Positions 17,598-21,934 of a stretch of DNA of 57,865 bases are shown here, piece by piece. Source of the DNA: Desulfocapsa sulfexigens (GTDB taxonomy: Bacteria; Desulfobacterota; Desulfobulbia; Desulfobulbales; Desulfocapsaceae); assembly GCA_015662865.1 (NCBI GenBank), contig DQTH01000232.1, positions 1 to 57,865 of the forward strand. The letters are read 5' to 3'. The translations under genes and the position numbers were made by a program. The notes beneath the pieces are model-generated. The model made no database searches, had not been told where the DNA came from, and saw nothing but the letters and a program-made list of their open reading frames with translations. How positions within the stretch are numbered: the first letter of the stretch is position 1; the number at the start of each line of letters is the position of its first letter.

Positions 17598-17847
17598 GTT
17601 TTACTCCGGGCTGAGGTTAATTAAAGCTGAAATTTCAACGGATTAAAAGTTTTGCCTCTGAGTTAAGGGGCAATAGATCCAGCTGAGTTTTTATCTTTTA
17701 GTATCTTACAGACTATTTTCGTGTTTTTTAAAAGAAAATATTCTCATAAGGTACTTATACCCCCTTGTGGGGTGTTAGAGTGTATCATGGATAAATTGTT
17801 TGCAATAAAATGTCCAAATGTTTTTCAAGCTTAGGGAAGAGATCTTT

Positions 17848-19236
17848 ATGCTCAGATTATGGCGTACCTGGTACAAAAAAAGTCGCTACCGCGAAGTAGC
17901 CAGAGTTTGTGTTCCTCTGGTTACTGGTATGGCCGCCACAACTGTCATGGAGTTTACTGACCGGATATTTCTCTCCCATTACAGTGTCAATGCCATTTCT
18001 GCTGTTGTCCCGGCAGGGGTAACTGTCTTTCTGGTTCTCTGTTTCCTTGGCGGCATCGCAGGTTACACCTCAATTTTTATTGCTCAGTATCATGGTGCCG
18101 GACAGCCGGAGAAGATTGGAGCTACTTTCTGGCAGGGGATGTTTTTCACTCTGGTATCAGGTGCATTGCTCATCCTGATAGCTTTTCAGGCCACTACACC
18201 TTTTTTCAAGCTTATCGGCCACAGTCCTGAAATTCGGGTTCTTGAAGAGCGATACTTCATGATTCTCTGTCAGGGAGGTGTACTGCATGTTGCCATTCAG
18301 GTTCTGTCCGGATTTTTCACCGGTAGAGGAATGACAAGACCGGTCATGATTGCCAATATCGTGGGAATGGTGGTGAATGTACCACTGAATTATGCAATGA
18401 TTAACGGTGTATGGGGTTTTCCGGAACTGGGTATAAGCGGTGCCGGCATTGCCACTGTTGTATCCTGGGGGGTGACTGTTTTTTGCCTGGCTCCTGCAAT
18501 TTTTTCCCGACGATTCGTAGAACAATTCAGACTACTGGAAACCATACGACTGGATCGTGATATTCTGATCCGTTTACTAAAGTTTGGAATACCGGGTGCA
18601 CTGCAGTTCAGCCTGGACATTTTTGCCTTCACTTTTTTTATTCTCATGGTTGGCCGCATGGGAACCGTACCCCTCGCCGCGTCCAATATTGTTATTTCCA
18701 TCAGCTCCCTTGCTTTTATGCCGGCCCTTGGTTTCTCCTTTGGAATGAGCAGCATGACAGGGCAGGCTCTTGGTAAAGGCAAACCGGAAGAGGCAAGAGC
18801 TGCAGTCTGGAGCGGCATTCATATTCTTATTATGTATACACTACTACTTGATGCCCTTTTTTTGATTGCGCCGGAATCCGTTATTACTCTTTTCATGGAT
18901 CGAGGGGATATGGGAGGTAATTATGAAGATATACTGCAAATGGGTTCAACACTCCTTAAGCTGGTCGCGGCGTATATTCTGCTCGATGTTTTTTATATGA
19001 TTTTTGCAGCAGCCCTGAAAGGTGCCGGGGATACCCGTTTTCTTTTACTGGTGATTTTTAGTGCATCGCTTGGCTGCATGATTATTCCTCTCTATGTGGG
19101 AATTAAGTTTCTGGGTATGACCATTTATGGTGCCTGGAGCTGTATTATCGTTTTTATCGGCCTTCTTGCCGTTTTGACTGCCCGGCGCTATCACGGAAAG
19201 AAATGGGAAGAAATGCTGGTGATTGACAAAGAATAG
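17848..19236 (+). CDS. MATE family efflux transporter
   Basis: About 12 TMs, FTDRIFL, FPELGISGAGIAT, ALKGAGDT; start 17818 or 17848. Confidence 0.9.
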   Translation: MLRLWRTWYKKSRYREVARVCVPLVTGMAATTVMEFTDRIFLSHYSVNAISAVVPAGVTVFLVLCFLGGIAGYTSIFIAQYHGAGQPEKIGATFWQGMFFTLVSGALLILIAFQATTPFFKLIGHSPEIRVLEERYFMILCQGGVLHVAIQVLSGFFTGRGMTRPVMIANIVGMVVNVPLNYAMINGVWGFPELGISGAGIATVVSWGVTVFCLAPAIFSRRFVEQFRLLETIRLDRDILIRLLKFGIPGALQFSLDIFAFTFFILMVGRMGTVPLAASNIVISISSLAFMPALGFSFGMSSMTGQALGKGKPEEARAAVWSGIHILIMYTLLLDALFLIAPESVITLFMDRGDMGGNYEDILQMGSTLLKLVAAYILLDVFYMIFAAALKGAGDTRFLLLVIFSASLGCMIIPLYVGIKFLGMTIYGAWSCIIVFIGLLAVLTARRYHGKKWEEMLVIDKE

Positions 19237-19463
19237 CTAACCTTCTCCCATTGTCTATTGTAAATATTTCGAATTTCCTGCCTGACACCAATTTCTGAAA
19301 CACCATTGTTGTTCCATACCTTCTTTTTTCCTGCATATCCGACACATTTCTCTTTTTGAGACACCTATCCGAAACAATCTGCAACACTTCCGTTGAATGA
19401 AAACCACACTTTTCCGATTCAATGCGACATGTGTGATCGCCGCCACACTTTGTGCAACATATG

Positions 19464-19476
19464 TGTAGAAACGACA
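19464..19476. promoter_or_regulatory. Putative enhancer-binding-protein site TGTA-N5-GACA
   Basis: TGTAGAAACGACA ~85 bp upstream of the -24 element; related TGCATATCCGACA at 19332 and TGTAAGATTGACA at 24983. Confidence 0.45.
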
Positions 19477-19559: not shown

Positions 19560-19575
19560 TGGCATCGTTACTGCT
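19560..19575 (+). promoter_or_regulatory. Sigma-54 (-24/-12) promoter
   Basis: TGGCATCGTTACTGCT: GG-N10-GC spacing, 57 bp before the ATG at 19633. Confidence 0.8.
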
Positions 19576-19622
19576 ATATATAAAGCAAATAAAAGAAAAA
19601 GAACGAAATATCAAACAAATAT

Positions 19623-19936
19623 GGAGGACACCATGACTGCAAACACACAAACCGCAACCAGAAATCAGGCTGAAGTTGGATACGAAACATCAAAATTTGC
19701 TCTTGGAGTTGGAATTGCTTCTGCAGCAATGATCGGACTCTGGGCAACCGCCTGTATGGCAAGCGCATTACTCAGTAATGGACTTGGTGGAACAGTTAAA
19801 GCCTTATTCACAGCCATCACCGGCTGACAGCATCTGAAGAATAAGCTTTTTAGAGAATGAATATAAGAACAGACAAGGAGGACACCATGACTGCAAACAC
19901 ACAAACCGCAACCAGAAATCAGGCTGAAGTTGGATA
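19623..19936 (+). repeat. 60-bp exact direct repeat (19623-19682 and 19877-19936) covering RBS and 5' coding region
   Basis: GGAGGACACCATGACTGC…GAAGTTGGATA identical in both; period 254 bp. Confidence 0.95.
19633..19827 (+). CDS. Small hydrophobic protein, paralog 1 (64 aa)
   Basis: GGAGG RBS; synonymous differences versus paralog 2 show it is coding. Confidence 0.85.
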   Translation: MTANTQTATRNQAEVGYETSKFALGVGIASAAMIGLWATACMASALLSNGLGGTVKALFTAITG

Positions 19937-20081
19937 TGAAACCTCAAAATTTGCACTTGGTACCGGAATGGCCATGTCAGCCCTTGTTGGTCTCTGGGGT
20001 ACTGCATGTCTCGTGAGTGCCCTTGTAAGTGTTGGTCCTCTGAATGTTGTCAAAGGATACATCACAGCAGTACTCGGCTGA
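19887..20081 (+). CDS. Small hydrophobic protein, paralog 2 (64 aa)
   Basis: AAGGAGG RBS; first 25 aa identical to paralog 1; GLWGTACLVSAL. Confidence 0.85.
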   Translation: MTANTQTATRNQAEVGYETSKFALGTGMAMSALVGLWGTACLVSALVSVGPLNVVKGYITAVLG

Positions 20082-20136
20082 TAGATAAAGATAGAAATAA
20101 ATATGTCACACAAATAGAATGACAGAGGAGAACACA

Positions 20137-20436
20137 ATGGCTGCAAATACTTCAAAAACGGCTGGTAGAATACTCCTGGCAGCAGGTTCAATAATGTGTC
20201 TTTGGGTAGGTGCTGCTTTTATCAGTGCCCTTTCAAGCAGTGGCTGGTCAGTTGGTGAACTTGCCGGACAGTACATGACCGCAATCGGGATGGTAAAACC
20301 ACTTCATACCCTGGTTGATTATTACACACACATCAAAGGGATTGAATATCTGATCTGTGTTGCCTTCTTTGTTGTCTTCCCTGTCTTCTTTAAATATGTG
20401 AACAAGGCTCCTGCAAAGGTTCCGGCAAAGAATTAG
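20137..20436 (+). CDS. Small membrane protein, paralog 3 (99 aa) with HmcD-like C-terminal segment
   Basis: GAGGAG RBS; LW…SAL…TAIG shared with paralogs; tail HTLVDYYTHIKGIEYLICVAFFVVFPVFFKYV. Confidence 0.8.
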   Translation: MAANTSKTAGRILLAAGSIMCLWVGAAFISALSSSGWSVGELAGQYMTAIGMVKPLHTLVDYYTHIKGIEYLICVAFFVVFPVFFKYVNKAPAKVPAKN

Positions 20437-20456
20437 TTTAACAATTTTATTTTCTC

Positions 20457-20497
20457 AACCTCCTGTTTATCGAAGATGATGGACAGGAGGTTTTTTT
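20457..20497 (+). terminator. Rho-independent terminator closing the small-protein operon
   Basis: AACCTCCTGT…ACAGGAGGTT stem running into a T7 tract. Confidence 0.85.
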
Positions 20498-20635
20498 ATG
20501 CACAGTTTTCAAACTGCAATATTTGGGTTATCATGAAATGACTGGCTTGTTTTGTCAGCTAATTCCGTGGTCTTATAAAATTAATCGTTGAGTAAAAGGG
20601 GCGACACAACAGTTGGCTGTCCCGGAGATATGAGG

Positions 20636-20806
20636 ATGGATGAAGATCAGGACAGGAAAGAGCGCATGGTGCGCATGGGACGTGGCATTTTTGGCATGTT
20701 GGCCATTGGTACCCTGCCCATCCTTTTTATGAATCCATTGCAGTATCTATTTGGCCTGCTAGTTTGCGGTATTATCGGTTTCGGCCTTGCCTGGGTAATG
20801 GTATAG
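20636..20806 (+). CDS. Small membrane protein (2 TM)
   Basis: GGAG RBS; charged N-terminus then two hydrophobic helices; start uncertain (20588/20630/20636). Confidence 0.55.
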   Translation: MDEDQDRKERMVRMGRGIFGMLAIGTLPILFMNPLQYLFGLLVCGIIGFGLAWVMV

Positions 20807-20837: not shown

Positions 20838-21236
20838 TCAGTGGCTTTCTTTCTCGATATCTCTGTGATAATGCTTTACTTCTGCAAAGTCTTTGCTGAG
20901 CAGCGCTGCGAGGGCTTCAGTGACTGCAACCGAGCGGTGATGGCCACCGGTACAGCCAATACCGATCCGTAACTCTTTCTTGTTACTGCTCCTGAGCTGT
21001 ACAGCCCAAAAATGGGTTAAGCGGTGCAGATGCTGCAGGCATTCTTTTCCTGCTTCATTTTTGAGAACATAGTCGGAAATATTTTTTTCGAGACCAGTAT
21101 AGGATTTCAGACTTTCAACGTGAAATGGATTGGCCAGAAAACGAACATCAAAGAGCAGATTCACATCCTGTGGCGGTCCGTATTTGTAGCCAAAGGAGAA
21201 TAGCGTGACAGGAAGGGGAGAGGTTTCTGTCATCAT
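20838..21236 (-). CDS. RapZ C-terminal-domain protein (stand-alone)
   Basis: FSFGYKYG, FDVRFLANP, IGIGCTGGHHRSVAV, HRDI; no P-loop domain. Confidence 0.88.
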   Translation of the reverse strand: MMTETSPLPVTLFSFGYKYGPPQDVNLLFDVRFLANPFHVESLKSYTGLEKNISDYVLKNEAGKECLQHLHRLTHFWAVQLRSSNKKELRIGIGCTGGHHRSVAVTEALAALLSKDFAEVKHYHRDIEKESH

Positions 21237-21808
21237 AGTCTTGCTCCAAGGATTTCATCACGACTGTAGAGCACTTTTACCGGACAGTTATTCATCTGAT
21301 TAAGTTGTGTAAATTTCACAATATTTTCAACTCCGTTGCCATCCTGAATGTCGACGGCAATTATAATTTTGACAATATATGCTCCAAACTGAATCACCTC
21401 TTCCAGTGCACGTATGAGCTGGCTTCCTGTGGCAACAACATCTCCAACCAGTGCAACTCTGTCACCGGCTTTGATCCTGGATTCAATCCACTTTGGCTCT
21501 GAAAGATTTCCTTCTTTTCTCATGGAGTCACGGATATAAAATACTCCGATTTCCTTAAGAAATGCTGCCCTGCAGACTATGGATGTAATAGGGTGGCCCG
21601 GCCCGCCAAGAGCGCAGATATCTAAGTCTTTGATTTCTTCGTAAACGAGTTCTCCTGCCAGCTTAATTCCCTGATGTTTAAGAGAAATTTTGAAAAAATC
21701 GAAGTAATTTGTAAGGATTCCGGAAGGCGTGCGAAAGTGGCCCTCTTCCTGGTAGGCACGTTCGGCAATTAAAGATTTGAGTTCTTTTCTGGTATCAGTC
21801 ATGGCCAT
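21233..21808 (-). CDS. Orotate phosphoribosyltransferase-like protein (divergent)
   Basis: FRTPSG…YFD, PRPP loop VALVGDVVATGSQL; start MAMTD chosen. Confidence 0.7.
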   Translation of the reverse strand: MAMTDTRKELKSLIAERAYQEEGHFRTPSGILTNYFDFFKISLKHQGIKLAGELVYEEIKDLDICALGGPGHPITSIVCRAAFLKEIGVFYIRDSMRKEGNLSEPKWIESRIKAGDRVALVGDVVATGSQLIRALEEVIQFGAYIVKIIIAVDIQDGNGVENIVKFTQLNQMNNCPVKVLYSRDEILGARL

Positions 21809-21934
21809 ACAGATACTACCCAAAATTAAATTTTTAGTGAAACTGTCAAATTTACTGCTGCAATCATAGAGAGTTCTTGGCATGTTGGCAATTTATTATT
21901 TCTCATAAAAAGAGTATGAAGGAATAAAGGAATT

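What the first reader, a model, noticed from the sequence alone, without database searches (positions are those of the whole stretch)
19560..20497. Self-contained sigma-54 operon of three paralogous small membrane proteins (best candidate for an undescribed system)
Seen: a -24/-12 promoter, three genes (64, 64, 99 aa) each with a strong RBS, then a strong terminator. Shared core: LW(A/G/V)xA(C/A)xxSAL…G…TA(I/V)xG. No enzyme, transporter or regulator is in the unit. Inference: highly expressed, signal-induced subunits of a membrane or surface polymer, or accessory subunits of a respiratory complex. I do not recognise a named family.
Basis: partly seen in the sequence, partly recalled or inferred. 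Interest (0 to 1): 0.72.

Follow-up and report, generated by a model that had tools for sequence, protein, structure and literature searches.

The report
Detached, multiplied HmcD-like subunit cassette
This small operon from a Desulfocapsa-like bacterium encodes two copies of an unnamed membrane protein and a longer relative of HmcD, the tiny subunit of a known respiratory complex, and carries the same upstream control motif as a cytochrome operon elsewhere in the genome, so it likely supplies that complex's small membrane subunits from a separate, often multiplied, site.

Summary
In detail: a sigma-54-type promoter, genes of 64, 64 and 99 aa (A1, A2, B) and a strong terminator. All three share one domain (hhalign 96%). 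The unit is not an orphan. B's C-terminal third is HmcD-related: below the family cut-off, but its profile retrieves true HmcD proteins. Across 251 genomes of the order, B tracks a single-copy HmcB-like gene (127 both, 102 neither, 22 discordant). A-B normally sits in or beside a sigma-54 operon for FtsH, a five-heme cytochrome and HmcB-/HmcC-like proteins. Here that operon lies on another contig without A-B. A motif trained on relatives' copies of its promoter ranks this cassette second of 1,877 sites genome-wide. Best reading (0.6): small membrane subunits or assembly partners of an Hmc-like quinone module, supplied in trans. It is not canonical Hmc: no HmcA or HmcE was found. Unexplained: up to 10 B and about 18 A copies against one HmcB, which could mean an abundant oligomer. 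A has no named family. Binding and expression are untested. The scan reported this cassette before in Desulfocapsa sulfexigens. The shared motif and the co-occurrence counts were tested here.

The parts
19361..19469 (+). Upstream activator-site region (predicted enhancer): conserved left-edge motif at 19361-19371 and three 16-bp ACA-N4-TGT-type sites at 19381-19396, 19424-19439 and 19454-19469
   Evidence: Left edge conserved in 7 of 7 aligned cassettes; motif trained on 19 relatives' cytochrome-operon promoters ranks this region 2nd of 1,877 clusters genome-wide; 0 of 2,000 shuffles and 0 of 500 permuted matrices reach its score
19560..19574 (+). Predicted sigma-54 (-24/-12) promoter
   Evidence: Sequence; pattern in 60 of 67 related cassettes against 49 of 2,335 background regions
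19633..19827 (+). A1, 64-aa membrane protein of an unnamed family; subtype shared with UWK_00943 of Desulfocapsa sulfexigens
   Evidence: no Pfam or NCBIfam family
19887..20081 (+). A2, 64-aa paralog: one predicted transmembrane helix (GxWGxACL core) followed by a short amphipathic helix
   Evidence: model pLDDT 67; no named family in the Atlas or PDB sequences
20137..20436 (+). B, 99 aa: A-like domain (residues 3-50) fused to an HmcD-like C-terminus (residues 57-88)
   Evidence: hhalign to A; NF045712 HmcD E 7e-4, 19.5 bits, cut-off 34; Atlas clusters 46-59% PF28260; profile retrieves over-cut-off HmcD proteins
20457..20499 (+). Intrinsic terminator
20636..20806 (+). ORF C, 56-aa hydrophobic protein of no family, after the terminator; a likely optional fourth gene
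   Evidence: 19 matches in 16 of 30 genus genomes; by my comparison with B positions, 12 of the 19 lie within about 500 nt downstream of a B gene on the same strand; no family

Best explanation
The cassette encodes two A proteins and an HmcD-related B protein that likely act as the small membrane subunits or assembly partners of a five-heme cytochrome / HmcB-like / HmcC-like complex encoded on another contig of the same genome. Shown: homology, gene order in relatives, co-occurrence and a shared upstream motif. Inferred: the sigma-54 response regulator beside the cytochrome operon (C216) binds that motif and switches both loci on together. Inferred: B inserts with both ends in the cytoplasm, its A-like helix serving as anchor, and its DxYxHIKGxEY loop and second helix pack against the HmcB tail and HmcC at the periplasmic face. 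Inferred: A packs alongside and stabilises or helps assemble the complex, while the operon's own FtsH would remove unassembled parts. From the literature, the HmcBC module would pass electrons between periplasmic cytochromes and menaquinone. Because each cassette carries its own enhancer, promoter and terminator, it would keep working after duplication to new sites, which would raise the dose.
For: (1) B hits HmcD in NCBIfam (8 of 10 B-type relatives tested also hit, all below cut-off, the two misses being degenerate second copies). The B profile retrieves short proteins of which 7 of 19 tested pass the HmcD cut-off, plus one HmcD-cytochrome fusion (19 picked from 85 hits). (2) In the order, 127 of 251 genomes have both B and the HmcB-like gene, 102 neither, 13 B only, 9 HmcB only. 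(3) Outside the genus, 49 of 52 loci examined held a B; 40 of the 49 have HmcB/C-like genes in the same stretch of up to 20 kb, 33 have FtsH, 43 have A directly upstream. In the genus A-B follows the operon directly in 9 of 20 loci. (4) In other Desulfobacterota a 53-62-aa form lacking the A-like helix lies just upstream of the HmcB-like gene in 8 of 8 loci examined, with the five-heme cytochrome recognised between them in 6. (5) The motif from relatives' operon promoters ranks this genome's operon 1st, this cassette 2nd and the second cassette (C298) 5th of 1,877; 61 of 67 related cassettes exceed the 99th background percentile; 9 other sigma-54-like promoters score at most 7.7 against 40.3. 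(6) This genome's operon lacks A and B, and its only HmcD-like hits are the two detached B genes. (7) Purifying selection: B copies pS 0.63, pN 0.08. (8) PMC6303296 (passages read) says HmcC keeps most of the quinone-site and proton-path residues of QrcD.
Against: Dose does not fit a 1:1 subunit: the HmcB-like gene gave one match in all 136 genomes that have it, while B reaches 10 matches and A 13-19 in three genomes; 68 of 140 B-positive genomes show two or more matches by my count (matches are not strictly copies). A is not tied to this module: G014 has 5 A matches with no B and no HmcB-like gene found, and A alone leads other operons with FtsH and other cytochromes, or FtsH only. B scores below the HmcD cut-off, and no HmcA or HmcE was found. 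In 9 of 49 loci no HmcB/C-like gene is in the stretch. Genomes are kin, so the co-occurrence overstates independence, and I chose the loci from the best-scoring hits on longer contigs. HmcD's own function is not established in the papers read.
Confidence: 0.6

Rival explanations
1. A and B are made in large excess and form their own membrane oligomer, a ring or scaffold around the Hmc-like module or a membrane-shaping coat, switched on with it. The analogy (recalled, not tested) is the paired small antenna polypeptides of purple bacteria, encoded by several scattered operons.
For: Many selected, promoter-bearing copies against a single HmcB; tandem arrays of up to five A genes; helix with small residues at packing positions plus an amphipathic helix; repeated within-genome expansion in the tree.
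Against: Many genomes of the order hold a single B match (72 of 140 by my count); B's best-conserved part is the HmcD motif, which elsewhere sits as a lone small gene beside the cytochrome; no fold match to a polymer-forming protein; no expression data.
Confidence: 0.18
2. A (and B) are regulators of the co-encoded FtsH protease or of the sensor kinases: adaptors, substrates or feedback inhibitors in a sigma-54 membrane quality-control circuit, as in the phage-shock response (recalled).
For: FtsH lies in 33 of 49 B loci; in L143 and L144 two A genes lead straight into FtsH, and A-FtsH order recurs on C156, L126 and L149; PAS/GAF kinases flank the locus.
Against: A-B leads directly into the cytochrome with no FtsH in L031, L124, L125 and L128; the short HmcD-like forms in L241-L248 show no adjacent FtsH in the 3-kb stretches read; no homology to known adaptors.
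Confidence: 0.14
3. A is a membrane sulfur carrier that holds sulfane sulfur on its conserved cysteine and feeds the cytochrome/NrfD modules in sulfur disproportionation.
For: C41 is kept in 35 of 40 A sequences; the family is largest in Desulfocapsa and rare elsewhere in the phylum (9 of 301 genomes).
Against: The cysteine is not invariant and B's A-like domain lacks it; the family is missing from 111 of 251 order genomes; the disproportionation papers checked do not mention Hmc.
Confidence: 0.05
4. The cassette is a passively mobilised or selfish repeat without a role of its own.
For: Sharp homology limits and varied neighbours; an IS1595-derived gene sits in the parent operon; near-identical copies within genomes.
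Against: No terminal inverted repeats in 3 of 3 cassettes examined; purifying selection; promoter and motif kept in 60 and 61 of 67 copies; presence tracks the HmcB-like gene.
Confidence: 0.03

Closest known systems
HmcD (NCBIfam NF045712, Pfam PF28260), the hydrophobic peptide of the Desulfovibrio HmcABCDEF complex
   Same: B residues 57-88 are homologous; relatives lie with HmcB- and HmcC-like genes. Composition of Hmc from 10.1101/2023.11.02.564894 (passages).
   Different: B is twice as long, with an extra A-like helix and amphipathic helix, and scores below cut-off. The partner cytochrome has 5 hemes, not 16. No HmcE was found. The gene is detached and multiplied, under a predicted sigma-54 activator, with FtsH in the parent operon.
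Nhc (nine-heme cytochrome complex NhcABCD; recalled, no paper read)
   Same: Cytochrome + HmcB-like + HmcC-like + small hydrophobic subunit, without the cytoplasmic HmcEF part.
   Different: Five-heme cytochrome (only a weak hit to the nine-heme family); extra A family; detached, multi-copy small-subunit cassette.
QrcCD / HybAB dimeric redox module (PMC6303296, passages)
   Same: The linked 4Fe-4S and NrfD-family pair belongs to this module.
   Different: These describe the partner complex, not the cassette; no A- or B-like subunit is described in the passages read.
TMH1-DsrOhPh-tetrahaem locus of cable bacteria (PMC13047784, section 11 read)
   Same: A small single-helix protein of unknown function encoded with a cytochrome, Fe-S protein and NrfD-family protein in Desulfobulbales.
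   Different: DsrP-like rather than HmcC-like; the paper calls TMH1 unique to cable bacteria; homology to A was not tested.

Membership tests
HmcD (NF045712) | Score at or above the curated cut-off of 34 bits | tested here: not met
   19.5 bits; relatives 19.6-27.1 bits
HmcD (NF045712) | Homology to the HmcD motif and helix | tested here: met
   E 7e-4; B profile retrieves 7 over-cut-off HmcD proteins of 19 tested; Atlas PF28260 in 46-59% of cluster members
HmcD (NF045712) | About 40-50 aa with a single hydrophobic helix | tested here: not met
   99 aa with two predicted membrane helices
HmcD (NF045712) | Encoded with hmcB and hmcC | tested here: inconclusive
   Not in this genome; yes in 40 of 49 loci outside the genus
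HmcD (NF045712) | Physical subunit of the membrane complex | not testable with these tools
   Needs co-purification
Hmc complex (HmcABCDEF) | 16-heme HmcA | tested here: not met
   No match over cut-off in the genome; best 23 bits against 400; operon cytochrome has 5 CxxCH
Hmc complex (HmcABCDEF) | HmcB and HmcC | tested here: inconclusive
   Best family for both, but below cut-off: 398.7/420 and 353.2/550 bits
Hmc complex (HmcABCDEF) | HmcE (NarI-like cytochrome b) | tested here: not met
   No match in a 98.8% complete genome
Hmc complex (HmcABCDEF) | HmcF | not tested
   No HmcF-sized gene in the operon; no genome-wide search run
Sigma-54 regulon of the C216 activator | -24/-12 promoter and shared upstream activator motif | tested here: met
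Sigma-54 regulon of the C216 activator | Activator binding and dependent transcription | not testable with these tools
   Needs EMSA or a deletion
MITE / non-autonomous IS1595 element | Terminal inverted repeats at the cassette ends | tested here: not met
   None in 3 of 3 cassettes
A protein | Match to any named family or solved structure | tested here: not met
   Pfam, NCBIfam, Atlas and PDB sequences all blank

The most novel reading that the evidence does not exclude
A and B are the building blocks of an undescribed, abundant membrane oligomer that surrounds or organises periplasm-to-quinone redox modules in Desulfobulbales. Desulfocapsa tunes its amount by scattering up to ten self-contained enhancer-promoter cassettes, and HmcD would be the minimal relic of this scaffold.
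Probability: 0.18. Interest if true: 0.75.

Novelty: new variant of a known kind. Interest (0 to 1): 0.42.

Why it matters
HmcD has no established function, and the Hmc-like five-heme module found in over half of the Desulfobulbales genomes searched was not described in the papers I could find. The cassette defines a sigma-54 regulon with a concrete operator motif, activator and targets in sulfur-cycling bacteria, and an unnamed membrane protein family (A) that recurs at the head of several cytochrome/FtsH operons. The mismatch between many small-subunit copies and one core complex is a sharp, testable question. If the proteins are only stabilising subunits, the interest is for specialists.

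Tried and rejected
Complex prediction of HmcC-like protein with B: score 0.20, mark 0.32, no verdict; not used either way. RNA runs: X1 and X2 cover genes and intergenic DNA of relative G013 flatly, like DNA; X3-X5 give scattered short contigs and were found through this gene; expression is not shown. Single-chain models are low to moderate (pLDDT 67, pTM 0.3) and Foldseek found nothing. PDB sequence searches with A, B and HmcC profiles found nothing meaningful. Strict sigma-54 consensus search missed the site. Mobile-element reading: no terminal repeats. One search used a guessed accession that was an unrelated family. Literature: no paper describing this cassette or the A family in searches for Desulfocapsa sulfexigens+UWK, HmcD+Desulfovibrio, sulfur disproportionation+Desulfobulbales+hmc, a five-term disproportionation search, D. 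sulfexigens+transcriptome, D. propionicus+Hmc+Nhc, Desulfobulbaceae+sigma54+small membrane protein, Desulfolithobacter+disproportionation+transcriptom. The library lacks most subscription papers, the original hmc paper was not held, and I read no supplements, where expression values for these genes may exist.

Full report
Observation. The unit is as described. A1 (19633-19827) and A2 (19887-20081) are 64 aa and B (20137-20436) is 99 aa, each with a strong ribosome-binding site. A -24/-12-type site lies at 19560-19574 and a terminator at 20457-20499 (z -5.4). The promoter alone is no better than chance, but the pattern precedes 60 of 67 related cassettes against 49 of 2,335 background regions (9 of 76 loci dropped for short upstream DNA). 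A1 and A2 are 69% identical, and A matches B's first 50 residues (hhalign 96.4%). Synonymous differences far exceed non-synonymous ones, so these are real genes under selection.

The proteins. A is modelled as a long helix with a hydrophobic core and a short amphipathic helix. It matches no family in Pfam, NCBIfam, the Atlas or PDB sequences. B is modelled as helix, amphipathic helix, loop, helix. Its residues 57-84 hit HmcD (E 7e-4, below cut-off). The nearest Atlas clusters carry PF28260 in 46-59% of members. A B profile run against 1.84 billion representatives gave 85 hits; of 19 short or fused ones tested, 7 pass the HmcD cut-off. B is therefore an A-domain-HmcD fusion. Topology (both ends cytoplasmic) is inferred from charge distribution only.

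Where it lives. Relatives are Desulfocapsa and other Desulfobulbales. B matches 140 of 251 genomes of the order. In a phylum-wide draw A matches 9 of 301 and full-length B 4 of 301. This genome holds six A genes and two B genes: the window, a second A-B cassette on C298, and three distant A genes on C156.

The parent locus. Across the order A-B accompanies one operon: sensor kinase, sigma-54 response regulator, FtsH paralog, five-heme cytochrome, HmcB-like Fe-S protein, HmcC-like NrfD protein. In some families A-B comes straight after the regulator; in others it follows hmcC or the second kinase with its own promoter. Of 52 loci examined outside the genus, 49 held B; 40 of these had HmcB/C-like genes, 33 FtsH and 43 an A gene directly upstream. 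I chose these loci from high-scoring hits on longer contigs. In the genus the cassette follows the operon directly in 9 of 20 loci. Presence of B and of the HmcB-like gene agrees in 229 of 251 genomes (127 both, 102 neither), though kin are not independent. In other Desulfobacterota a 53-62-aa form without the A-like helix precedes the HmcB-like gene in 8 of 8 loci read. This genome's operon is on C216 and has no A or B. It is not canonical Hmc: no HmcA or HmcE was found, and HmcB and HmcC score below cut-off.

Shared control. The parent promoter carries three repeats of a 16-bp motif. A matrix trained on 19 other genomes, leaving this one out, ranks this genome's parent promoter 1st, the window cassette 2nd, two further sites in the linked loci 3rd and 4th, the C298 cassette 5th and the C156 A genes 10th, of 1,877 clusters. 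No shuffle (0 of 2,000) or permuted matrix (0 of 500) reaches the window's score of 40.3, and 9 other sigma-54-like promoters score at most 7.7. The motif score passes the 99th background percentile in 61 of 67 related cassettes. That the adjacent regulator binds it is inferred.

Amplification. Homology between dispersed copies runs from the motif region to the terminator and then stops. B reaches 10 matches per genome and A 13-19, against one HmcB-like match in all 136 genomes with it. The tree of 57 B genes shows both old locus-specific copies (the window copy groups with same-locus copies from two other genomes, 99/98) and within-genome clades. No terminal inverted repeats were found.

Mechanism. 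Most likely (0.6) B is the HmcD-type small subunit of the cytochrome-HmcBC module and A a companion helix, both supplied in trans and co-induced. PMC6303296 (passages) suggests HmcC may reduce quinone electrogenically but says its function is uncertain. 10.1101/2023.11.02.564894 (passages) lists HmcD only as a hydrophobic peptide. PMC10920352 (passages) did not detect HmcD by proteomics. Against this reading stand the copy excess and A's independence: G014 has A with no B or HmcB-like gene found, and A leads FtsH or other cytochrome operons alone. These keep an abundant oligomer (0.18) and an FtsH or kinase regulator (0.14) alive. Binding and expression remain untested.

Other papers seen: PMC3739170, PMC13490349 and PMC7117923 (passages) and PMC13047784 (passages and section 11) do not mention Hmc. 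Nhc, the antenna analogy and the phage-shock analogy are recalled, not from calls. No supplements were read.

Novelty. I found no paper on the cassette in the searches listed under Tried and rejected. Verdict: a real, conserved feature; a new variant of a known kind (HmcD / Hmc-like module) with one unnamed family and an unexplained amplification. Interest 0.42.

Noticed in passing
L130:9406-10311 (G000:C216), and 40 loci among L042-L129: An IS1595-derived gene is the first gene of the parent operon, in the same place in 40 other loci at about 30-76% identity. It passes the IS1595 transposase cut-off and keeps the zinc ribbon, but appears to lack the usual acidic catalytic residues seen in other IS1595 copies of this genome. 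It looks like a domesticated transposase, possibly a regulator. It occurs where A-B has left the head of the operon. One search found only ciliate papers.
   Followed up: partly
window 20636-20806: ORF C, a 56-aa hydrophobic protein of no family, follows a B gene in 12 of 19 genus matches although it lies past the terminator.
   Followed up: partly
window 19614-19707 and 19868-19961: A1 and A2 have nearly identical 5' ends (4 synonymous, 0 non-synonymous differences in 25 codons) but 53 differences in the rest, suggesting gene conversion between two old subtypes.
   Followed up: partly
G000:C156:3049-16612: A paralogous locus: two Fe-S / multiheme cytochrome / NrfD sets, kinase, sigma-54 regulator, three distant A genes and an FtsH paralog, with the same upstream motif. 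No B.
   Followed up: partly
   Followed up: no
P0164, P0165, P0172, P0178: The HmcD motif is also fused to GcvH-like proteins and to a class III-like cytochrome.
   Followed up: no
L243, L246, L247: Where the short HmcD-like form occurs, an unrelated 80-90-aa membrane protein and a lone receiver-like protein lie upstream, in the place A takes in Desulfobulbales.
   Followed up: no
window 17818-19236 and 20838-21883: Flanks are a MATE transporter, a stand-alone RapZ C-terminal domain and a phosphoribosyltransferase-like gene; the same neighbours flank the cassette in L002.
   Followed up: no
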